Positions 5,111 through 54,444 of a stretch of 64,000 nt of DNA are shown here, one piece after another. The DNA is from a virus (Duplodnaviria; Caudoviricetes): positions 137,947 to 201,946 of the IMG/VR virus record IMGVR_UViG_3300022723_000184. The stretch is one strand, 5' to 3'. Each line of letters begins with the position of its first letter. Position 1 is the first letter of the stretch. The notes beneath the pieces were generated by a model, which made no database searches, was not told the DNA's origin, and saw only the letters and a list, made by a program, of their open reading frames with translations. Position numbers and translations under genes: made by a program.

Positions 5111-5359
5111 ATGGCTACACACTCTCGCAGTGCCCGTAACTTCCTGGAGCGGAACGGGGTTTACTCAACCCGCCGTTCACCGGTCACGCCGCGGCTCGAC
5201 ACCACGAAAGCCGGGCTCCGGGTGAACACCATCCCGTTACAGCAACCGTCGTTGAACCCAGATCTTTTGCTGGATAACAACGGTGCCCCTCCGACAGATA
5301 GGGGGATCACGGACCCCTGGCCTCCGCCGCAGGAGGTGTCTGATGAGTCAGAGGAATAA
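5111..5359 (+). CDS. Hypothetical protein
   Basis: 82-aa ORF, GGAGG upstream, overlaps the next gene. Confidence 0.5.
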   Translation: MATHSRSARNFLERNGVYSTRRSPVTPRLDTTKAGLRVNTIPLQQPSLNPDLLLDNNGAPPTDRGITDPWPPPQEVSDESEE

Positions 5360-7509: not shown

Positions 7510-7728
7510 ATGGCAAACCCTAACCAAGGACATCTCGTTCTCAGTCGCCAGCGCGACGAGAAAATCATGATCGGAGATGACATCATCGTGCAGGTCGTGG
7601 ACATCCGGGGCGACAAGGTTCGCATCGGGATCTCGGCGCCGCCCAACGTCTCGATCGACCGCGAGGAGGTCTTCCTCGCGAAGAAGCGTGAGCAGGAGGC
7701 AAGGGCCGATGTCCGCAGCAACCACTGA
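7510..7728 (+). CDS. csrA: Carbon storage regulator CsrA/RsmA homologue
   Basis: LVLSRQRDEKIMIGDDIIVQVVDIRGDKVRIGISAPPNVSIDREEV matches the CsrA pattern. Confidence 0.92.
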   Translation: MANPNQGHLVLSRQRDEKIMIGDDIIVQVVDIRGDKVRIGISAPPNVSIDREEVFLAKKREQEARADVRSNH

Positions 7729-9498: not shown

Positions 9499-10194
9499 AT
9501 GCTTTCAGGTATTGAGATCCAGGAGGCGGTGGTCCGCCAGAACGAGTTCGAGATCGGAAAGGCCAGGCTCGACAAGGGCATTTGCCCGTTCACCGGCAAG
9601 AAGGTCGGTGAGTTCGTGCGCAGCGGTAGGGACCAAAGGCTGGACTTCCAAAACCAGGTGAAGAACCGGCCGAGGATCAAGATCGATCCGTTCAACGCCG
9701 GCCAGCTGAACCCCAACAGCTACAACGTGCGGCTGGCACCGGAACTCCTGGTGTACGACATTCCCCACCACAACCAGACGCTCGGCGGGTTTGAGGCCTA
9801 CGTCTACCCGCTCGACATGAAGCGGGCCAACCCGACCCGGGAACTGACCATCCCGCGGAGCGGGCTGATCCTGGAGCCCGGCGTGCTGTACCTGGGCAGC
9901 ACGATCGAATACACCGAGGCCCACAACGTGGTCCCCCAGCTCAACGGCCGGTCAAGCACCGGCCGCCTGGGTCTGGATGTCCATGCCACCGCGGGCTTCG
10001 GCGACGTGGGGTTCTGTGGGACTTGGACGCTGGAGATGAGCGTGATCCACCCGCTGCGTATCTACGCCGGCGTGGAGATCGCTCAGCTGGCCTACTTCGA
10101 GATCAGTCTCAGACACGAGACGTACAGGTCGAACAAGTACCAGGGCCAGCGAGAGACCCGCGCCAGCGGGATGCACAAGGACTTTGGTGGCTAA
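9499..10194 (+). CDS. dcd: dCTP deaminase (dUTPase fold)
   Basis: QLNPNSYNVRL, GRSSTGRLGL, AGFGDVGFCGTWTLE, IAQL motifs. Confidence 0.88.
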   Translation: MLSGIEIQEAVVRQNEFEIGKARLDKGICPFTGKKVGEFVRSGRDQRLDFQNQVKNRPRIKIDPFNAGQLNPNSYNVRLAPELLVYDIPHHNQTLGGFEAYVYPLDMKRANPTRELTIPRSGLILEPGVLYLGSTIEYTEAHNVVPQLNGRSSTGRLGLDVHATAGFGDVGFCGTWTLEMSVIHPLRIYAGVEIAQLAYFEISLRHETYRSNKYQGQRETRASGMHKDFGG

Positions 10195-10529
10195 TGGCTC
10201 ACTTCTATGGCACCGTCGATGGGCGGAGCCGGACGGAAGGGACCAGATGCGGGACCCGGTCATCGGGTCTCCGGACGGTGGCCGCCAGCTGGGCGGGCGC
10301 CGTACAGGTCAACCTTTACATCGACGAGAACGGGGCCGATTGCTGCGAGATCCGCTTCATCCGCTGGGAAGGTTGCGGAACCGACAAGCTGGTCTACGAC
10401 GGTCCGATCGACCCTGGTGATCAGATCTCCGACCTCCTCGACCAGATCAAGGAGGAGCGGACGCTGCATCACGAAGACATCAACAAGCCGGGTCCCCGGC
10501 GTAAGGTACGGAGAGGAGCGATCACATGA
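10194..10529 (+). CDS. Hypothetical phage protein
   Basis: MAHFYGTVDGRSRTEGTRCG; ATG overlaps the previous TAA. Confidence 0.65.
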   Translation: MAHFYGTVDGRSRTEGTRCGTRSSGLRTVAASWAGAVQVNLYIDENGADCCEIRFIRWEGCGTDKLVYDGPIDPGDQISDLLDQIKEERTLHHEDINKPGPRRKVRRGAIT

Positions 10530-10969
10530 GCGAGGACCACAACTGGAAAGTGTTGGAAGACGCGATCGACATTGCGGCGACCGGCCACCAGAAACAGATA
10601 AGGGCCGACGGTCGACCCTACATCGTCCATCCCGTAAGGATGGCGATGCGCCTGCTGCAGAAACACGGGCCGCTGCTGGCCGCGGTGGCCATGCTCCACG
10701 ACGTCGTGGAGGACACCGACTACACGCTCGACGACCTGGCCGGGCTGTTCCCGCAGCACGTGGTTAAGGCGGTCGACAACCTGACGCGGCGTGACGGCGA
10801 GACATACGATGACTTCGTCGAGCGGTGCGGGGCCAACCCCTGGTCCCGCCTAGTGAAAATGCACGACCTGCGAGACAACATGCGGGACGTGGACGAGTTC
10901 AAGCCGTCGCTCCGCAAGCGATACGACAAGGCCCTCGGCCGCCTGGAGGAGATCGATGCCCAAACATAA
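10526..10969 (+). CDS. HD-domain hydrolase, RelA/SpoT small alarmone hydrolase-like
   Basis: HQKQIRADGRPYIVHP, MLHDVVEDT, LVKMHDLRDNM. Confidence 0.8.
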   Translation: MSEDHNWKVLEDAIDIAATGHQKQIRADGRPYIVHPVRMAMRLLQKHGPLLAAVAMLHDVVEDTDYTLDDLAGLFPQHVVKAVDNLTRRDGETYDDFVERCGANPWSRLVKMHDLRDNMRDVDEFKPSLRKRYDKALGRLEEIDAQT

Positions 10970-11592: not shown

Positions 11593-11629
11593 GTCGCCAA
11601 CAGGCTGCTCATCGACAAGAGGATGAGAC
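11593..11629 (+). repeat. Degenerate CRISPR-repeat-like hairpin in the cas12 5' leader
   Basis: CTGCTCATCG-ACAAGAG-GATGAGAC versus array repeat CTGCTCATCG-GTTTAGAA-GATGAGAC; ends 20 nt before ATG 11650. Confidence 0.8.
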
Positions 11630-11649: not shown

Positions 11650-13419
11650 ATGGGATTCAATAAGGACCCAGAGGCCCGCTGTGTGGTTTACCAGTACGGC
11701 GGCAAACATCCGACGGAAAACGAAGACGAAGCGATCAACCAGCTCGCCAAGGCGAACCGTTTTCGGAACCGGCTCGTTGAGTTGGAGCTACAACGACGTG
11801 AAGAATACCACGCTGCGTTCTCGGGTTACGGAGACCTGGCGGAGCCGTCAAATCAGCTTGAGACGCTCAACGAGCAGCTGACCGCTGCGGTGGCAGAACT
11901 TAAGGCGTGGAGACAATTGAACGGCACTCGAAGTCAACACCCGACGCTAACCCCGCAGATCGTTTCGCTACGGGCTCAGGCTCGCCAGCTACGGACACAG
12001 ATCAAGTCGATCAAGGAAGCGGCCAAAGGCGATCCTACGGTGCAGGCGGCAATCGAAAAAGCAAACCAGCAGCACCGAGATCAGACCAAAGCTGCGTACG
12101 GCGCTGTAAGAGAATCGAACCCGGAGGCCGAGGACGCCAGAGACCGGCATGGGTTGTTCTGGGGAACGGCCCTCCTAGTTCAAAGGGCAGCGACACAGTT
12201 CCAGAAGGGCCCTCCCCCGAGGTACAAACGTTTCGACGGGACGGGAACTATCGGCGTGCAGCTGCAGAACGGGATGTCTGTGGAGGATCTGTTCACTCCG
12301 GGCGGCAGCGTCTGGATTGACCCCGTTCCTCCGGAGGCCTGGGACCCGCAGACGCCGAGAGGTCAAAGGCGAAAACTCGCAAGAACGATGCTACACATGC
12401 GGATCGGCGGGAAGCCGCAGGCCTGGGTGATTCTAAAGCTACCTGTCACCGTGCACAGACCGCTGCCTGCAGGAAAACTTATCAAGTGGGTCACGGTCAC
12501 TCGGCGTAAGTACGGTTCACAGGCGCGGTGGTATGTAAACGTCACGACGGATATCAGGTCTGGTGGCACGCTTCACGATGATGTTGCGGCTGCCGGATTT
12601 GTGGGTGTCGACCTGGGTTTCAGGTTGTTCAAGCCCGCAGAAAGCAGCTCAGGCAAGCGATCGCTCCGAGTGGCTGTATGGGCCGGAGATGACGGGGAGA
12701 CAGGCGAACTTCGCCTCGACGCGAGGTTTATGTCCTACATCTCAAAGGCCGACGGTTTGAGGTCGATCCGGGACAAGCGGCTTGATCAGATCAGAGCGGC
12801 GCTGCTTCCGTTGTGTGACGAGGCGGGTACGCCGGAGTGGTGGAAAGACGACACTCAACACATGGCCAAATGGAGGTCTCCTCGAAAGCTGTATCACTTG
12901 CTCCACAAGTGGAAAGACAACAGGTGGGATGGCGACAAAACGCTGTTCGATCTGTTGGTTAAGTGGGTAGTTCAGGACCGTCACCTCCACGTGTGGGAAG
13001 CCAACAATCGCCGAAAAGTAGCGGCTCGTCGCCTGGACATGTACCGGAACCTGGCGGCCTCTTTGAGGCGCAAGTACGCGGTTATCGGGATCGAAGACAT
13101 CGATTGGCGGATCTGGAGCAAGTTGGCCCTGCCCGAAGAAGAGGAGACCAAGTCAAAGAAGTTCCGTGTTCAAAAGAAACATGCGGCGGTCGGTCTGCTT
13201 GCAGAGACGCTGTCGAATTGCGGGGCACAGGTTGTACGTTTGGATCCCGCTTACACGACGAAGCGGTGCAACGCCTGCGGCAAGATCACCGAATTTGACG
13301 CTGACCGGCACCTGCGACATACGTGCGAACATTGCCATGCGGAGTGGGACCAAGACTACAATGCGGCAAAGAACCTGCAAGACATGGCGAGCGGCAACGC
13401 CGTAACGCAAACCGCGTAG
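11650..13419 (+). CDS. cas12m: Compact type V CRISPR effector, Cas12m (V-M / V-U1)-like, 589 aa
   Basis: RuvC-I VGVD321LG, RuvC-II IGIE482D, RuvC-III DQD569YNAA; zinc finger C540/C543/C559/C562; blocks RFDGTGTIGVQLQ, LPVTVHRPLP, WRSPRKL recalled as Cas12m-like; adjacent CRISPR array. The subtype needs alignment to confirm. Confidence 0.8.
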   Translation: MGFNKDPEARCVVYQYGGKHPTENEDEAINQLAKANRFRNRLVELELQRREEYHAAFSGYGDLAEPSNQLETLNEQLTAAVAELKAWRQLNGTRSQHPTLTPQIVSLRAQARQLRTQIKSIKEAAKGDPTVQAAIEKANQQHRDQTKAAYGAVRESNPEAEDARDRHGLFWGTALLVQRAATQFQKGPPPRYKRFDGTGTIGVQLQNGMSVEDLFTPGGSVWIDPVPPEAWDPQTPRGQRRKLARTMLHMRIGGKPQAWVILKLPVTVHRPLPAGKLIKWVTVTRRKYGSQARWYVNVTTDIRSGGTLHDDVAAAGFVGVDLGFRLFKPAESSSGKRSLRVAVWAGDDGETGELRLDARFMSYISKADGLRSIRDKRLDQIRAALLPLCDEAGTPEWWKDDTQHMAKWRSPRKLYHLLHKWKDNRWDGDKTLFDLLVKWVVQDRHLHVWEANNRRKVAARRLDMYRNLAASLRRKYAVIGIEDIDWRIWSKLALPEEEETKSKKFRVQKKHAAVGLLAETLSNCGAQVVRLDPAYTTKRCNACGKITEFDADRHLRHTCEHCHAEWDQDYNAAKNLQDMASGNAVTQTA

Positions 13420-13543
13420 CCGATCGATCTGTAGTGTGTACAAGTAGTTGTGGCGGCTACGGAGGGCCGCTGCACTTCTGTCAAGGGTGCCGACGATCGA
13501 ACCGCTCGAAAACGGCCTGATAACCATGTACGCACGTGTAGGT

Positions 13544-13549
13544 TATAAT
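13544..13549 (+). promoter_or_regulatory. Sigma70-type -10 box for the CRISPR array
   Basis: TATAAT ending 7 nt before repeat 1; no clear -35. Confidence 0.55.
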
Positions 13550-13556
13550 GCCGCGG

Positions 13557-14301
13557 ATCGTAATACCTGCTCATCGGTTTAGAAGATGAGACGCGGCATT
13601 GATTGCCTTCTTGAGTTGCTGCTCCAACATCGTAATACCTGCTCATCGGTTTAGAAGATGAGACATCGCCGCATCGCTGGAAGCGGGCGTGGCGTCGGCG
13701 GATCGTAATACCTGCTCATCGGTTTAGAAGATGAGACCTTTCTCTGTGTCCGAGATAACGGGGTCACTAATGTCATCGTAATACCTGCTCATCGGTTTGG
13801 AAGATGAGACAAGCATCCGAGCAGCCGCTACAAGGACAAGATCGGCATCGTAATACCTGCTCATCGGTTTAGAAGATGAGACTAGTCGGGCAATTGCTCG
13901 AACGGCACAGAGATATCGTCATCGTAATACCTGCTCATCGGTTTAGAAGATGAGACGCTTACCGGTGGCCGAGGCCAAGGCGCGATGGAGAACATCGTAA
14001 TACCTGCTCATCGGTTTAGAAGATGAGACACGGTGGATCCGGTCGAGCGGCTGATCCTTCACATCATCGTAATACCTGCTCATCGGTTTAGAAGATGAGA
14101 CCCGGTGATCGACGCGGTCCTCGAGAACGCCGAGGACATCGTAATACCTGCTCATCGGTTTAGAAGATGAGACAAGTGGATCAGGTTCTTCTCATCGTAA
14201 TACCTGCTCATTGGTTTAGAAGATGAGACGCGGACTGCCCCGAGATGCGGCGCCGGCTGTGGGTAATCGTAATACCTGCTCATCGGTTTGGAAGATGAGA
14301 C
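13557..14301 (+). CRISPR. CRISPR array, 11 repeats of 36 nt (ATCGTAATACCTGCTCATCGGTTTAGAAGATGAGAC), 10 spacers
   Basis: Repeat starts 13557, 13629, 13702, 13775, 13847, 13921, 13994, 14066, 14138, 14194, 14266; spacers 36, 37, 37, 36, 38, 37, 36, 36, 20, 36 nt; CTCATC/GATGAG stem; 3' GAGAC end. Confidence 0.98.
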
Positions 14302-36635: not shown

Positions 36636-36671
36636 GTCGTAATGTCCGCTCACCGGCTTGGAAGATGAGAC
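36636..36671 (+). repeat. Solitary CRISPR repeat copy
   Basis: GTCGTAATGTCCGCTCACCGGCTTGGAAGATGAGAC, 30/36 ungapped identity to the R4/R11 repeat variant; ends 11 nt before ATG 36683. Confidence 0.9.
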
Positions 36672-36682
36672 GAAGGAACCCG

Positions 36683-38212
36683 ATGGCTAAAAGAAAACCC
36701 CGTAAGCCGACACCGAAGCCGGACGTTGAGGGCGACGACTTCGACGAGTTCCCGGACGAGGTTCGGGAGCAGTCGGAGCCCAGGGCGTCCAAGAAGGCGG
36801 CCGAGAAGAAGTCCGCCAAGAAGGCGGCGAGCAAGAAGCGGGTGGCCCGAAAGGATCCCCGCGATCAAGAGCAGAAGGGCGAGCAGCGTGGCGAGGTCTC
36901 CGACAAACGTGCGCCCAGACCCGCAAGACCCACGGTGAACCTCGACAAACGCAAGCTGACCAAGAAGCAGAAGGGGCAGCTCGAAGAGTGGCGGGGCAAC
37001 ACGAAGGGCAAGAAGCTCGACAGCTATTTCGCTGGCCAGGTGGAGCAGGCCCGCAAACAGTTCGGTCACCGAGCGGTCATGGCCGCGACCGAGGCCGCCA
37101 ACCTGGTCATCGTGATCCCGTGCCCGAGCCTTGCGTTCGAGTACCTGATCGCCCAGGACGGTTTCCCGCTTGGACTGGTGCTGCACCTGGCGGGTCCTCC
37201 TGGCTCGCTCAAGTCGTCGCTGCTCTTGGAGTTCATCCGCTGGTTCCGCATGGCGGGCGGCGGTGGCATCCTGATGGAGAACGAGACCAAGTACAGCCCG
37301 GACCTGCCCAAGTCGATCCTCGGCTACGAGGACGCCGAGGTGGGTTTGATCCTCAACCGGTGCGTTTCGGTCGAAGACTGGCAGGACAAGCTGACCTACT
37401 GGATCGACACCCAGAAGAAGGGCCTCATCGGCACGAAGGAAGAGCCCGGCCCCGGTCGCACGGTTCCGATTCTGTTCGGCGTCGACTCGATCATGGGCAA
37501 GGCCAGCTACGAGACCCAGGAGAAGGTGGCCAAGGAAGGTCACGCCGAGCGCAGCTTCCCCGTGGAAGCAATGAAGATGACCACCTACATGAAGTCGGTC
37601 CCGCAGTGGATCGACGAGTGGCCCTTTGCCCTCGTCCTCAACAACCATCTCAAGATCGGCAAGGATGACACCGGCCGCGAGGTGAAGAGGACGGCTGGCG
37701 GCGTGGGCGTCAACTTCCAGGAGTCCTGGGAGCTGGAGCCCAGCGTGGTCAAGAGCAAGATCGGCTCAGCGGACTGGGACGGCGTGCAGATCCGCATCCG
37801 TTGCCGCAAGAACTCCATGGGCCCCACGCACCGGCAGATCGAGACCCGGATGCTCTGGTGGGAAGAGGAGAACAAGGAAACGGGCGAGTGGGAGCAGATC
37901 ACCGTCTGGGACTGGGACTGGGCGACGATCAAGATGCTCAGCACCCTCAAGAGCCGCCCAGCGGCCCGGCTCAAGGACGCGGGCTTTCACCTGCAGACGC
38001 CCAAGGTCAGCGACGTGGAAAACACGGCCTGGTCCTCGAACCTCGGCATGAAGGCGAAAGACGCCAAGCCGTGGCAGGAGGTCGGCCGCATGATCCGTGA
38101 GGACGATCAGCTGATGGAGACGCTCCGCACGTGCCTGTCGATCAAGCGGCGGCCGTTGCTGGATGGCGATTACCTGGATCAACTTGAGAGCTTGAGGAAG
38201 GACTTGCCGTGA
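36683..38212 (+). CDS. RecA/UvsX-like recombinase
   Basis: GPPGSLKSS Walker A, MENE, FGVDSI Walker B, LNNHLK, basic N-terminal extension. Confidence 0.82.
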   Translation: MAKRKPRKPTPKPDVEGDDFDEFPDEVREQSEPRASKKAAEKKSAKKAASKKRVARKDPRDQEQKGEQRGEVSDKRAPRPARPTVNLDKRKLTKKQKGQLEEWRGNTKGKKLDSYFAGQVEQARKQFGHRAVMAATEAANLVIVIPCPSLAFEYLIAQDGFPLGLVLHLAGPPGSLKSSLLLEFIRWFRMAGGGGILMENETKYSPDLPKSILGYEDAEVGLILNRCVSVEDWQDKLTYWIDTQKKGLIGTKEEPGPGRTVPILFGVDSIMGKASYETQEKVAKEGHAERSFPVEAMKMTTYMKSVPQWIDEWPFALVLNNHLKIGKDDTGREVKRTAGGVGVNFQESWELEPSVVKSKIGSADWDGVQIRIRCRKNSMGPTHRQIETRMLWWEEENKETGEWEQITVWDWDWATIKMLSTLKSRPAARLKDAGFHLQTPKVSDVENTAWSSNLGMKAKDAKPWQEVGRMIREDDQLMETLRTCLSIKRRPLLDGDYLDQLESLRKDLP

Positions 38213-46235: not shown

Positions 46236-47077
46236 CGGTGGAGGCGAAAACCTACAAGCAGGACTGCGTCCAGGGTCTGGCCCAGCGGGTGAAGGCCGGG
46301 ACTGCGAACTTCGTGTTCGCTGACCCGCCTTACAACATCGGCCAGGAGTACGACGCGTACGACGACAAGAAGGGGCGCAACGAGTACATCACCTGGTCCC
46401 GCATGTGGATCGACAAGGTGGCCGACGCCCTACACCCGCACGGGGCGTTCTGCCTGATGATCGGCGACGCGTTCGTGTCCGACATGGACATGCTTGCCCG
46501 CGAAAACAAGCTGTACAAGCGGCAGCACATCATCTGGCACTTCACGTTCGGCCAGCACAACGCGAACGGCCTGGCCCAGTCGCACGTCCACATCCTCTAC
46601 TACACCAAGCACAAGACCAAGAGGACGATGAACGTGGACGACCCTGAGGTGCGTGTGCCCTCGGCCCGCCAGCTCAAGTACAACGACAAGCGGGCTAACC
46701 CCAAAGGCAAGCCCCCGGCCTCGGTCTGGGCCCTGCTCCCTGAGCAGCTGCCCGAGGGTTTCGATCCCTGCAGCAACACTTGGCTGTTCAGCCGGATCTG
46801 TGGGACGTTCAAGGAAAAGAAGAAGGGGATGCCCAACCAGCTGCCGGTTCCGCTTGTCGAGCGGTGCGTGCGGCTGTTCAGCAATCCCGGGGATCTCGTG
46901 GTCGATCCGTTCCTGGGCACTGGGACGACGGCCGTCGCCTGCCTGAACTCGGGTCGCAACTTCGTTGGGTTCGATATCAGCGCCAAGTGTGTGAAGGTGG
47001 CAAGGGATCGGATCAAGGAAGCAGCCGGCCGGCAGGCCAGGAAGAAGGACGATGACAAAACTCTCTTTGACAGCTGA
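46232..47077 (+). CDS. N6-adenine/N4-cytosine DNA methyltransferase (beta class)
   Basis: FADPPYN precedes DPFLGTGTT. Confidence 0.9.
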   Translation: MTVEAKTYKQDCVQGLAQRVKAGTANFVFADPPYNIGQEYDAYDDKKGRNEYITWSRMWIDKVADALHPHGAFCLMIGDAFVSDMDMLARENKLYKRQHIIWHFTFGQHNANGLAQSHVHILYYTKHKTKRTMNVDDPEVRVPSARQLKYNDKRANPKGKPPASVWALLPEQLPEGFDPCSNTWLFSRICGTFKEKKKGMPNQLPVPLVERCVRLFSNPGDLVVDPFLGTGTTAVACLNSGRNFVGFDISAKCVKVARDRIKEAAGRQARKKDDDKTLFDS

Positions 47078-51167: not shown

Positions 51168-51407
51168 CGGCTCAAAACGCGTCAAAATACATGCAGGCAA
51201 CTTAGCCTGCTCAATCAGGACCCCGGAAGGCTCCGTCGGGCATTTCTGCTCGGCGGGGTCTTTTTCTTTTCACATCCATGGAACAGACCCAGTACCAGAT
51301 GAGCCGACCTTCGGGTCACCTGAGACGGGACCGGTCTGTTCCCTGGATCTGAACCACGTGGCGGCCGGAGCCGCCGAAACAAGACACCTCTCAAGTAGGA
51401 GAACGTC

Positions 51408-53139: not shown

Positions 53140-54444
53140 ATGACTCAGGTTCCTGCTGTGCCCCCCGGCGCCGCCTCGTGGTGGAAAGGGGGAACTGGGG
53201 AACCGCCGACCGTTGCGCACACTCCCAACCCTGCTGCGTATCACATGGCTGATTCGCGACAGGTCGAGCGTGGCGGTACAGGCACGGTGATCCCGCGTGC
53301 CAGGAACGACGGCGGCTCCATGGGATTTGACGGGACGAAGCCGGGCATCGTGCATGTGGACCCGGACGCACCGGACGGCGGGGCCCGGGTCGACCTGACC
53401 AGGCTCCAGAAGGCCGACCTCCAGAAGGCCCTGTCCGAGTCCAGCGACCCTCACGAGGTTTATTACAAGATCAGCACGGGCCCCGCCCCGAAGCCGGTAG
53501 CCGCACCGCCCACGACACGGGCCGCCTCGCTCCCGGTCAACCCGGTAATGCCCGGCAGCTACGTGACGCCGGCGGCGAACACCGACGGCACGCAGATCGC
53601 CCCGCAGCCCGGCAACCAGACGCTGGGCTTCCAGGCTCCGGTCGCCTCGCCGGCCGTCGCCCCACTCCATCAGGAGGAACCCATGTCCCAGGCGCCGACC
53701 ACCCCGCAACCCGTACTCGAACCGGCGCCGGCCGTGGCCCCTCAGACCACAACGCTGCCCCCGGTCCAGAACACCTCGCCGCCGCCCCAGCCCGTGGCGT
53801 CGCCTGCCCCTGCCCCTGCCCCTGCCCCTGCCCCTGCCCCTGCCCCGCCGGTCGACTACGGCCTGATCGGTCATATGATCAAGCAGGCCGTGGCCGAGGC
53901 CGTGCCCGCGGCTCAGCCCATGACCCCGGCACCGCCCGTCCCGCCGCCCTCGGCCCCCGAGGGCCTGCCTTCGGCTGCCGCCCCGCCCACCGGGCCAGCC
54001 GTGCAACCGGTCGAGGACTGGCAGCGGTTCGGCCAGGAGCAGGAGCAACAGCAGCGGCCGGCACCGGCCAAGCCCGGACCACTGCTCGACCTGGCCGAGA
54101 TCCTCAAGATGCCGTTCCTCGGTGAACGGGCCAAGAAGCCAAGCGAACAGATCATTGTCGAGCTGGGCGGTTCGGCCGGAAGCATGAATACCCGGTACCA
54201 TGCCGTGGTCGATGGTGGCGGGTGCCTGGCCCTGGTCTACGACACGCGTTACGAGGAAGGGATGCAGTGGGCTCCGCCTGATCTGGGCGACCAGGCGATC
54301 AAAGTCCACTGCCCTTCGAGGGACAAATCCTTTACCATCTCGTCCATGGGCATGCAGTTCGCTCTCGGAGTGCTCGACATCATTGTCCTGATCAAGCACG
54401 ATGAGGCGGATCAGACGCTGCCGCCTCCGCCGCCCCAGATGTGA
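53140..54444 (+). CDS. Proline-rich protein with folded terminal domains
   Basis: ATG 53140 after GAAGGA; long P/A-rich linker. Confidence 0.65.
   Translation: MTQVPAVPPGAASWWKGGTGEPPTVAHTPNPAAYHMADSRQVERGGTGTVIPRARNDGGSMGFDGTKPGIVHVDPDAPDGGARVDLTRLQKADLQKALSESSDPHEVYYKISTGPAPKPVAAPPTTRAASLPVNPVMPGSYVTPAANTDGTQIAPQPGNQTLGFQAPVASPAVAPLHQEEPMSQAPTTPQPVLEPAPAVAPQTTTLPPVQNTSPPPQPVASPAPAPAPAPAPAPAPPVDYGLIGHMIKQAVAEAVPAAQPMTPAPPVPPPSAPEGLPSAAAPPTGPAVQPVEDWQRFGQEQEQQQRPAPAKPGPLLDLAEILKMPFLGERAKKPSEQIIVELGGSAGSMNTRYHAVVDGGGCLALVYDTRYEEGMQWAPPDLGDQAIKVHCPSRDKSFTISSMGMQFALGVLDIIVLIKHDEADQTLPPPPPQM
53803..53844 (+). repeat. (CCTGCC)7 microsatellite encoding (PA)7
   Basis: Seven exact hexamer copies. 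Confidence 0.9.

What the first reader, a model, noticed from the sequence alone, without database searches (positions are those of the whole stretch)
11650..13419. Phage-borne Cas12m-like effector with an apparently intact RuvC triad
Seen: 589 aa with D321, E482, D569 and a four-Cys zinc finger. Known: characterised Cas12m proteins, as I recall, have a degenerate RuvC (His at the first Asp) and silence rather than cut DNA. Inference: either a cleavage-competent relative bridging TnpB and Cas12m, or a binder despite the triad. It is small and apparently tracrRNA-free, so of tool interest. Codon usage looks less GC3-biased than flanking genes, suggesting acquisition.
Basis: partly seen in the sequence, partly recalled or inferred. 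Interest (0 to 1): 0.82.

Follow-up and report, generated by a model that had tools for sequence, protein, structure and literature searches.

The report
Jumbo-phage Cas12m with scattered solo repeats
This is a genuine small CRISPR effector of the Cas12m family, with its own CRISPR array, in a 202-kb phage; its intact catalytic triad is normal for the family and probably does not mean DNA cutting, but the nine lone copies of its repeat elsewhere in the phage genome are unusual.

Summary
Window 11650-13419 (+) is a 589-aa ORF with D321, E482, D569 and a CxxC...CxxC zinc finger. An 11-repeat, 10-spacer CRISPR array follows at 13557-14301. The record is a 201,946-bp IMG/VR virus.

The protein belongs to Cas12m (type V-M), not TnpB. 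It matches solved Cas12m chains over its full length, and its AF2 model (pLDDT 92.9) superposes on Cas12m2 and GoCas12m at TM 0.76-0.79, against 0.2-0.4 (query-normalised) for Cas12f and TnpB.

D-E-D is the majority state: 139 of the 163 family proteins aligned. Published D-E-D Cas12m orthologs bind DNA but do not cleave it. An RNA-guided, tracrRNA-free DNA binder is therefore the most likely reading (about 0.7). Cleavage is not excluded.

Phage carriage is not unique. A September 2026 preprint reports a myxophage Cas12m, and I found 21 more IMG/VR contigs encoding relatives.

What is unusual is nine solitary repeat units scattered over this phage genome. The eight well-preserved ones keep the crRNA hairpin and pseudoknot through compensatory changes. 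Six have their own -10 box and read antisense into the 3' ends of genes. Three lie 11-20 nt before start codons, including that of cas12m itself. Three other Cas12m phage records that I scanned in full have none. Other first-stage readers of this scan also noted these units.

The parts
11594..11629 (+). Degenerate repeat-like hairpin in the cas12m 5' leader. It has CTG, the stem CTCATC/GATGAG and the AC tail, with a different 8-nt loop. It is followed by A10-GGAATAGCGC and then the ATG at 11650.
Evidence: The 10-nt and 8-nt matches to the array repeat at the right spacing are far beyond chance (estimate ~1e-5, my own calculation).
11650..13419 (+). cas12m, 589 aa. RuvC-I D321 is codon 12610-12612, RuvC-II E482 is 13093-13095, and RuvC-III D569 is 13354-13356. 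The zinc finger C540/C543/C559/C562 spans 13267-13335.
13420..13556 (+). CRISPR leader. A TATAAT box lies at 13544-13549, exactly 7 nt before the first repeat.
   Evidence: The promoter is inferred from sequence. The generic sigma-70 scan, which needs both hexamers, found nothing.
13557..14301 (+). CRISPR array of 11 repeats of 36 nt (ATCGTAATACCTGCTCATCGGTTTAGAAGATGAGAC). There are 10 spacers of 36-38 nt, one of them only 20 nt. The variant repeats are the 4th, 10th and 11th.
   Evidence: structure
36636..36671 (+). Solitary repeat unit in the leader of the UvsX/RecA-like gene. It ends 11 nt before the ATG at 36683, which is preceded by GAAGGA. The mechanical ORF start at 36665 lies inside the repeat.
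51179..51207 (-). Paralogous intergenic element, identical at 28 of 29 nt to the sequence just downstream of solitary unit 6 (genome 124139, minus strand) but lacking the promoter-repeat unit. It is an 'empty-site' counterpart.

Best explanation
The gene encodes a D-E-D-type member of the Cas12m (type V-M) family, carried with a leader and a 10-spacer array but no adaptation genes by a ~202-kb phage.

The array is probably transcribed from a -10 box 7 nt upstream of repeat 1. Cas12m binds the repeat-derived scaffold, a 6-bp hairpin plus a 3-bp pseudoknot helix, without a tracrRNA. It then uses roughly the first 17-20 nt of each spacer to bind PAM-flanked double-stranded DNA. As in the characterised relatives, it most likely silences by blocking transcription or replication rather than by cutting. 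The unidentified targets are probably competing mobile elements.

In this phage the same effector probably also loads RNAs from nine solitary repeat units. This suggests a second, regulatory use.

Shown here: family membership, the locus anatomy, the RNA structure, and the existence of the solitary units. Inferred: binding without cleavage, the promoters, the targets, and any regulatory role.
For: Sequence: phmmer against PDB chains gives 23vw_A 'DNA-binding protein Cas12m' at 5.9e-67 over residues 14-578, Cas12m2 (8hhl) at 1.5e-26 and GoCas12m (8pm4) at 2.5e-19, all full length. Cas12f and TnpB match only residues ~520-577. The Pfam Cas12f1-like TNB domain is the only domain hit. The NCBIfam TnpB models score far below their cut-offs (50.5 bits against a cut-off of 100).

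Fold: the AF2 model has pLDDT 92.9 and pTM 0.88. Foldseek TM is 0.76 and 0.79 to Cas12m2 and GoCas12m, against 0.2-0.4 (query-normalised) for Cas12f and TnpB.

Locus: the array adjoins the gene. No Cas1, Cas2 or Cas4 is found anywhere in the record. There is only one TnpB/Cas12-type gene and no anti-repeat. All of this matches what is described for V-M (PMC10691335).

crRNA: a hairpin (columns 14-19/29-34) plus a pseudoknot helix (9-11/20-22) is paired in 98.9% of cells. Eight of the nine pairs show compensatory changes, 0 of 500 shuffles reach this, and slid controls give 22-55%. The register equals the pairs reported for the PmCas12m crRNA structure.

No cleavage expected: D-E-D, H-D-D and N-D-D orthologs all bind but do not cut. 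Converting H-D-D back to D-E-D did not restore cutting.

The sister protein P0002 (47% identity, SH-like support 100) is also on a phage contig and has its own array.
Against: Nothing about activity was measured for this protein. D321, E482 and D569 are all present, and the triad is strongly conserved across relatives that share only ~35% identity. That conservation argues for some catalytic use of the site. Omura et al. explicitly left cleavage by the D-E-D clades open.

No protospacer was found for any spacer, so neither the PAM nor the targets are known. The promoters are read from sequence only.
Confidence: 0.7

Rival explanations
1. The effector is an active RNA-guided DNA nuclease. Its intact D-E-D RuvC site cuts or nicks targets, as in Cas12f or TnpB, and the phage uses it to destroy competitors.
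For: All three carboxylates and the zinc finger are intact. D-E-D is kept in 85% of relatives despite deep divergence, and non-D-E-D states arose at least 10 separate times on the tree, which points to purifying selection on the site. Omura et al. suggested that clades 3 and 4 might hydrolyse DNA.
Against: Four D-E-D orthologs tested by Bigelyte et al. showed no dsDNA cleavage, and MsCas12m showed no target or collateral DNA or RNA cleavage. An H-D-D to D-E-D reversion did not restore activity. The nearest solved homologue is D-E-D and was deposited as a DNA-binding protein. No Arg or Lys position between the zinc knuckles is conserved in the family. In Cas12a and Cas12f a catalytic Arg lies in that domain; that comparison rests on my own knowledge.
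Confidence: 0.17
2. The main job of this Cas12m is to regulate phage genes rather than to defend. Solitary repeat units make crRNA-like leaders or small RNAs that load Cas12m. The three sense units place the Shine-Dalgarno and AUG of cas12m, the UvsX-like gene and a 119-aa gene in the guide position, so Cas12m would mask or process these mRNAs (autoregulation). The six promoter-bearing units make guides antisense to the 3' ends of genes.
For: Nine units lie outside the array, against about 3 weak hairpins expected by chance. In the eight well-preserved units, changes in the scaffold are compensatory: A-U in the array type against G-C in the GC-rich type at pair 9-22. The cas12m-leader unit is degenerate and was not part of that alignment. 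Sense units end 12, 20 and 11 nt before an ATG. All six antisense units have a TATAAT-like box 7 nt upstream (within 1-2 nt), as in the array leader. Three other Cas12m phage records scanned end to end have repeats only in their arrays.
Against: There are no expression data. Cas12m is not known to act on RNA. No second genomic match with a consistent PAM exists for the guides, apart from one paralogous element. The sister phage has no hairpin in its cas12m leader. The genes next to the units share no obvious function.
Confidence: 0.4
3. [quoted passage not shown]
For: Viral solitary repeat units directly downstream of promoters are the known Racr anatomy, and type V-A Racrs work (PMC10651486).
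Against: Racr units are typically not associated with cas genes, whereas here they match the phage's own array and would titrate its own effector. No species-representative bacterial genome carries this repeat; the two pattern hits lack the scaffold. Only 1 of 401 genomes of the tentative host family encodes a Cas12m relative. Three units are embedded in mRNA leaders without a promoter of their own.
Confidence: 0.1
4. It is a transposon TnpB with an omega RNA rather than a CRISPR effector.
For: The C-terminal RuvC/TNB region matches TnpB models weakly.
Against: The full-length matches and the fold are to Cas12m. An 11-repeat array with distinct spacers follows the gene. There is no second copy in the genome.
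Confidence: 0.01

Closest known systems
D-E-D-type Cas12m orthologs (clades 3/4 of Wu et al. 2022 as cited in PMC10442227; the MsCas12m set in PMC11013384; PDB 23vw)
   Same: Size of about 580 aa, D-E-D triad, CxxC...CxxC zinc finger, an adjacent array of 36-nt repeats, no tracrRNA and no adaptation genes. 23vw_A aligns over residues 14-578 at 5.9e-67.
   Different: Similarity to 23vw_A is moderate (229.8 bits over the full length; identity not computed), and only 35-40% to the nearest metagenomic relatives other than P0002. It is carried by a jumbo phage. Solitary repeat units are scattered over the same genome. Activity is untested.
MmCas12m2 (8hhl) and GoCas12m (8pm4), the structurally characterised H-D-D Cas12m
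   Same: Same fold (TM 0.76-0.79), the long REC helices, the same crRNA layout, and DNA binding as the family's mode of interference.
   Different: They have His and Asp at the first two triad positions. This protein has the canonical D-E-D.
MvCas12m of myxophage MV-1 (bioRxiv 10.64898/2026.09.14.751636)
   Same: A phage-encoded Cas12m with a D-E-D triad, an adjacent array, no adaptation genes, no tracrRNA and no identifiable protospacers.
   Different: It is a different protein (610 aa; D305/E463/D555; 8 spacers). No solitary repeat units are reported there.
Viral solitary repeat units / RNA anti-CRISPRs (PMC10651486), and host crRNA-like regulatory RNAs (crlRNA, bioRxiv 10.1101/2024.12.27.630466)
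   Same: A single repeat directly behind a promoter, with the crRNA scaffold conserved.
   Different: Here the units sit in the same genome as the matching effector and array. A third of them lie in mRNA leaders over ribosome-binding sites. The 'guides' are simply the adjacent phage sequence.
TnpB / Cas12f
   Same: The RuvC and zinc-finger (TNB) core; the presumed ancestry of Cas12m.
   Different: Only the last ~60-130 residues match, and query-normalised TM is about 0.2-0.4. Those proteins use a long omega RNA or a tracrRNA. Here there is a CRISPR array with a short scaffold.

Membership tests
Cas12m (CRISPR-Cas type V-M) | Full-length sequence homology to characterised Cas12m proteins | tested here: met
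   23vw_A 5.9e-67 (residues 14-578), 8hhl 1.5e-26, 23vu 9.2e-22, 8pm4 2.5e-19, each as one stretch over nearly the whole protein
Cas12m (CRISPR-Cas type V-M) | Cas12m fold: WED, REC with long helices, and RuvC with a helical insertion and a zinc-finger/TNB domain | tested here: met
   model pLDDT 92.9; TM 0.76-0.79 to 8hhl and 8pm4; the next families have query-normalised TM of 0.2-0.4
Cas12m (CRISPR-Cas type V-M) | Adjacent CRISPR array and no other cas genes | tested here: met
   Array at 13557-14301. Cas1, Cas2 and Cas4 are not found in the 202-kb record.
Cas12m (CRISPR-Cas type V-M) | A single short crRNA whose repeat forms a hairpin plus pseudoknot; no tracrRNA | tested here: met
   Covariation, in the same register as the PmCas12m crRNA. 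No anti-repeat. RNA loading itself is not testable here.
Cas12m (CRISPR-Cas type V-M) | PAM-dependent dsDNA binding without target cleavage | not testable with these tools
   Inferred from tested D-E-D, H-D-D and N-D-D orthologs
Cas12m subgroup with a degenerate RuvC (H-D-D / N-D-D, such as MmCas12m2, GoCas12m, PmCas12m) | His or Asn at the first triad position and Asp at the second | tested here: not met
   D321 and E482. The protein belongs with the D-E-D majority (139/163).
Transposon-borne TnpB | Passes the TnpB family model; single omega RNA at the transposon end; no array | tested here: not met
   NF040570 scores 50.5 bits against a cut-off of 100, over the C-terminal part only. An array is present.
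RNA anti-CRISPR (Racr) solitary repeat units | A promoter-proximal solitary repeat that mimics a host CRISPR repeat, in an element without the cognate cas gene | tested here: inconclusive
   Six units show promoter plus repeat. However, the cognate cas gene is in the same genome, and no host genome with this repeat was found.

The most novel reading that the evidence does not exclude
This phage has turned a DNA-binding Cas12m into its own gene regulator. Nine solitary copies of the repeat, kept foldable by compensatory mutations, make crRNA-like leaders and small RNAs. Through these the effector would control translation or transcription of phage genes, including its own. That would be a natural phage-encoded CRISPRi-like regulon, possibly acting on RNA as well as DNA.
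Probability: 0.35. Interest if true: 0.85.

Novelty: new variant of a known kind. Interest (0 to 1): 0.55.

Why it matters
As an effector it is one more compact, tracrRNA-free Cas12m. It is only 35-47% identical to its nearest metagenomic relatives, so it could add PAM diversity for CRISPRi or base-editing scaffolds. The idea that its intact triad makes it special does not survive the literature.

What could matter is the context. This phage carries effector, array and nine structurally conserved solitary repeats, some lying on ribosome-binding sites. If they are functional, this would be a natural case of a virus using a binding-only CRISPR effector to run part of its own gene expression, with built-in autoregulation of the cas gene. 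It would also give a direct experimental handle on what viral solitary repeat units do when the cognate Cas protein is present.

The survey also shows that Cas12m is fairly common on large viral contigs, whereas the literature so far names a single case.

Tried and rejected
Spacer targets:
- No match within the phage itself beyond chance.
- None in 50,697 phage records.
- Only sub-significant hits in plasmids.
- The 20-mer prefixes of two spacers are absent from IMG/VR.
- Only chance-level 20-28-nt hits in 401 Pirellulaceae genomes. The best per-genome E was 5.8e-4, and hits clustered on GC-rich spacers.

Solitary-unit guides: 18-mers with up to 4 mismatches have no second site in the phage. 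The one exception is unit 6, and its 'target' proved to be a paralogous 29-nt intergenic element rather than a clear protospacer.

Scans for the repeat pattern:
- Nothing in IMG/VR.
- Two chance hits in species genomes.
- Four hits in metagenomes. Only L018 and L020 keep the pseudoknot, and neither lies next to a cas12m.

Close relatives of the phage: none were found in IMG/VR using the Cas12m or the UvsX-like protein as single queries, and megablast of 12 kb found no phage record.

Tools that did not help:
- The large alignment A1 was too divergent for a genome scan.
- The smaller alignment found only two bacterial loci, so the tested orthologs (Ms, Tf and others) could not be placed on my tree.
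- Rfam has no family for this RNA.

TnpB and 'bridge' readings: rejected.

Full report
**1. Observation**

Window 11650-13419 (+) is an uninterrupted 589-codon ORF.
- The start codon is supported by a conserved N-terminus in relatives.
- GC3 is 0.67, against 0.78-0.89 for most neighbouring genes.
- The window is the last 64 kb of a 201,946-bp IMG/VR virus record with 62.5% GC and CheckV completeness 90%.
- The record has a large terminase subunit, primase, SbcC-like protein, helicases, DnaB, DNA polymerase and a UvsX-like recombinase. 'Phage-borne' is therefore right, and by size it is a jumbo phage.

**2. What follows the gene**

A CRISPR array starts 137 nt after the stop codon.
- It has 11 repeats of 36 nt and 10 spacers of 36-38 nt, one of only 20 nt, at 13557-14301.
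- Single-base variants occur in the 4th, 10th and 11th repeats.
- A TATAAT box at 13544-13549 ends 7 nt before repeat 1.
- No Cas1, Cas2 or Cas4 exists anywhere in the record.
- There is only one Cas12/TnpB-type gene.
- No anti-repeat lies nearby.

**3. Family**

Sequence and fold both place the protein in Cas12m.
- phmmer against all PDB chains gives full-length matches to four different Cas12m proteins: 23vw_A at 5.9e-67, Cas12m2 8hhl at 1.5e-26, UnCas12m4a 23vu at 9.2e-22, and GoCas12m 8pm4 at 2.5e-19. Cas12f, TnpB and Fanzor match only the last ~55 residues.
- Pfam sees only the Cas12f1-like TNB domain, and the NCBIfam TnpB models are far below cut-off.
- An AF2 model built on 70 relatives has pLDDT 92.9. 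It superposes on Cas12m2 and GoCas12m at TM 0.76-0.79. The next families reach 0.2-0.4 (query-normalised).
- The protein is therefore a member of Cas12m, not an intermediate between it and TnpB.

**4. The triad**

The exhaustive representative search finds 3,560 cluster representatives, 1,654 of them at E <= 1e-30.
- In an alignment of the 163 family proteins retrieved by the two searches, the triad is D-E-D in 139. The rest are NDD, NGD, HDD and similar states.
- On a FastTree phylogeny the non-D-E-D states need at least 10 independent changes. D-E-D is therefore the ancestral and majority state.
- This agrees with the 'gradual inactivation' described for V-M (PMC10691335) and with the four clades defined by triad type (PMC10442227).
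- Bigelyte et al. deliberately tested four D-E-D, two H-D-D and two N-D-D orthologs. All bound dsDNA in a PAM-dependent way without cutting. MsCas12m showed no target or collateral cleavage, and its D274A mutant still processed pre-crRNA (PMC11013384).
- Back-mutating H-D-D to D-E-D in Cas12m2 did not restore cleavage.
- The nearest solved chain, 23vw_A, is D-E-D in the alignment and was named a DNA-binding protein by its depositors.
- No basic residue between the two zinc knuckles is conserved in the family.

My reading is that this protein most likely binds and silences (about 0.7). The strong conservation of the triad still asks for an explanation, which could be Mg-mediated holding of the non-target strand, RNA trimming, or conditional cutting. 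I leave about 0.17 for real nuclease activity.

**5. The guide RNA**

I aligned 21 repeat variants: the array, the solitary units, the sister phage L002 and a divergent array L008. I counted pairs for a hairpin (columns 14-19 with 29-34) and a 3-bp pseudoknot helix (9-11 with 20-22).
- 98.9% of cells pair.
- Eight of the nine pairs have changes on both sides.
- 0 of 500 shuffles reach this, and slid registers give 22-55%.
- These are the same positions as the pairs G(-28)-C(-26)/G(-15)-C(-17) and C(-23)-C(-20)/G(-3)-G(-6) reported for the PmCas12m crRNA.
- The hairpin alone is the minimum-free-energy fold.

**6. Phage carriage is not unique**

- A September 2026 preprint calls MvCas12m of myxophage MV-1 the first phage Cas12m. 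It is 610 aa, has D305/E463/D555 and sits next to 8 spacers. It is a different protein.
- The nearest relative of P0001 is P0002: 47% identity, sister with support 100. It lies on an 87-kb, 38%-GC contig with a virion protein (phrog_1645, 1e-101) and its own 10-repeat array. The two phages share nothing else apart from a weak HD-domain match.
- An alignment-based scan found 21 further IMG/VR contigs encoding relatives, many of 100-400 kb. Sixteen have a repeat array in the flank.

**7. The unusual part**

Searching the whole phage genome for the repeat revealed solitary copies far from the array. A structure-based scan lists nine, against about 3 weak hairpins expected by chance.

Six are on the minus strand, at genome positions 5222, 7620, 46773, 53583, 124139 and 136027.
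- Each has a TATAAT/TATACT/TACAAT-type box 7 nt upstream of the repeat (within 1-2 nt), exactly like the array leader.
- Five of the six read antisense into the 3' end of a plus-strand gene. For three of those genes the stop codon lies inside the repeat. The sixth (124139) is intergenic.

Three are on the sense strand without such a box. They end 12, 20 and 11 nt before start codons: a 119-aa gene, cas12m itself (window 11594-11629, degenerate loop) and the UvsX-like gene (window 36636-36671). The would-be guide therefore covers the Shine-Dalgarno and AUG.

Other points:
- The GC-rich unit type differs from the array repeat by compensatory changes in the pseudoknot, A-U to G-C. This argues that the RNA scaffold, and so Cas12m binding, is under selection.
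- Two pairs of units are identical over 46-58 nt, which suggests recent duplication.
- Three other Cas12m phage records that I fetched and scanned end to end (185, 117 and 63 kb) have repeats only in their arrays. The sister phage has no hairpin in its cas12m leader.
- The neighbouring genes are a sulfotransferase, an intein-rich helicase-primase, a short GHKL ATPase and others, with no common theme.
- Other first-stage readers of this scan noted these units independently. I found eight before reading their notes and took the cas12m-leader copy from note e1-5389194.

**8. What the solitary units may do**

The 'guides' are simply the adjacent phage sequence, and they have no second PAM-flanked site in the genome. 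One apparent target is a paralogous intergenic element without the unit, an empty-site counterpart.

The possible readings are these:
- Cis regulation at the RNA level, with Cas12m masking or processing leaders. This would include autoregulation.
- Guides against unit-free alleles in related phages.
- Racr-type decoys.

The decoy idea fits poorly for two reasons. The cognate effector is in the same genome. Also, only 1 of 401 genomes of the tentative host family has a Cas12m relative. That host guess, Pirellulaceae, rests only on the phage dCTP-deaminase-like gene having its best matches there at 40-49% identity. None of these readings is shown.

**9. Verdict**

The 'intact triad' is ordinary for the family and, on published evidence, not a sign of cutting.

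As an effector it is a new member of a known kind. The system as a whole, with its dispersed and structurally conserved solitary repeats, is a new variant worth an experiment.

Noticed in passing
Genome coordinates outside the window (G000:C1): 5222-5257(-), 7620-7655(-), 46773-46808(-), 53583-53618(-), 72751-72786(+), 124139-124174(-), 136027-136062(-); held as L010-L016: Seven of the nine solitary repeat units lie outside this window. Six have a -10 box 7 nt upstream (within 1-2 nt); five of them read antisense into gene 3' ends. For three genes the stop codon is supplied by the repeat in the same frame.
   Followed up: partly
L008:2390-3040 (Logan SRR22138399 contig, next to Cas12m homologue P0019 and conjugation-type genes); also L024 and L026: These are arrays in which every repeat differs in sequence, yet each keeps the 6-bp stem and the pseudoknot by compensatory changes. 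Such diversified repeats within one array are unusual.
   Followed up: partly
L021-L041 (IMG/VR): At least 21 viral contigs, many of 100-400 kb and one classed as a provirus, encode Cas12m relatives. Sixteen have a repeat array in the flank. Phage carriage of Cas12m therefore seems common, although only one case is in the literature searched.
   Followed up: partly
window 13550-13556, the equivalent positions before the solitary units, and L002:11916-11921: A CCGAG(G)/CCGCGG motif directly precedes the first repeat in this array, in most solitary units (including the cas12m-leader copy) and in the unrelated 38%-GC sister phage. It is not found before internal repeats.
   Followed up: no
window 14174-14193: Spacer 9 is only 20 nt, against 36-38 nt for the others. 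This is about the length Cas12m actually uses as a guide. It may be a deletion product.
   Followed up: no
G000:C1:46858-53604 (L065): A 2,248-aa helicase/primase-like ORF carries several intein signatures (LAGLIDADG_3 at 7e-43 in three stretches, plus Hint domains). A solitary repeat unit overlaps its stop codon.
   Followed up: no
window 9499-10194: The best genomic matches of the dCTP-deaminase-like gene (40-49% identity; 72 loci) are almost all Pirellulaceae or other Planctomycetota. This hints at a planctomycete host. Few phages of that phylum are known.
   Followed up: partly
L020:2275-2305 (metagenome contig SDBT01226636.1) and L018:6757-6780: These are single Cas12m-type repeat units with an intact hairpin and pseudoknot on unrelated short contigs. 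One lies 33 nt upstream of a small ORF with an AGGAGG site. No cas12m lies within the DNA held.
   Followed up: partly
window 36665 versus 36683: The mechanical start of the UvsX-like ORF (ATG at 36665) lies inside the solitary repeat. The in-frame ATG at 36683, preceded by GAAGGA, is the more plausible start.
   Followed up: no
window 10526-10969: An HD phosphohydrolase (phrog_990, 3e-37) lies upstream of cas12m. A weakly similar HD_4 protein lies 7 kb downstream of cas12m in the sister phage L002 (tblastn 6e-8).
   Followed up: no
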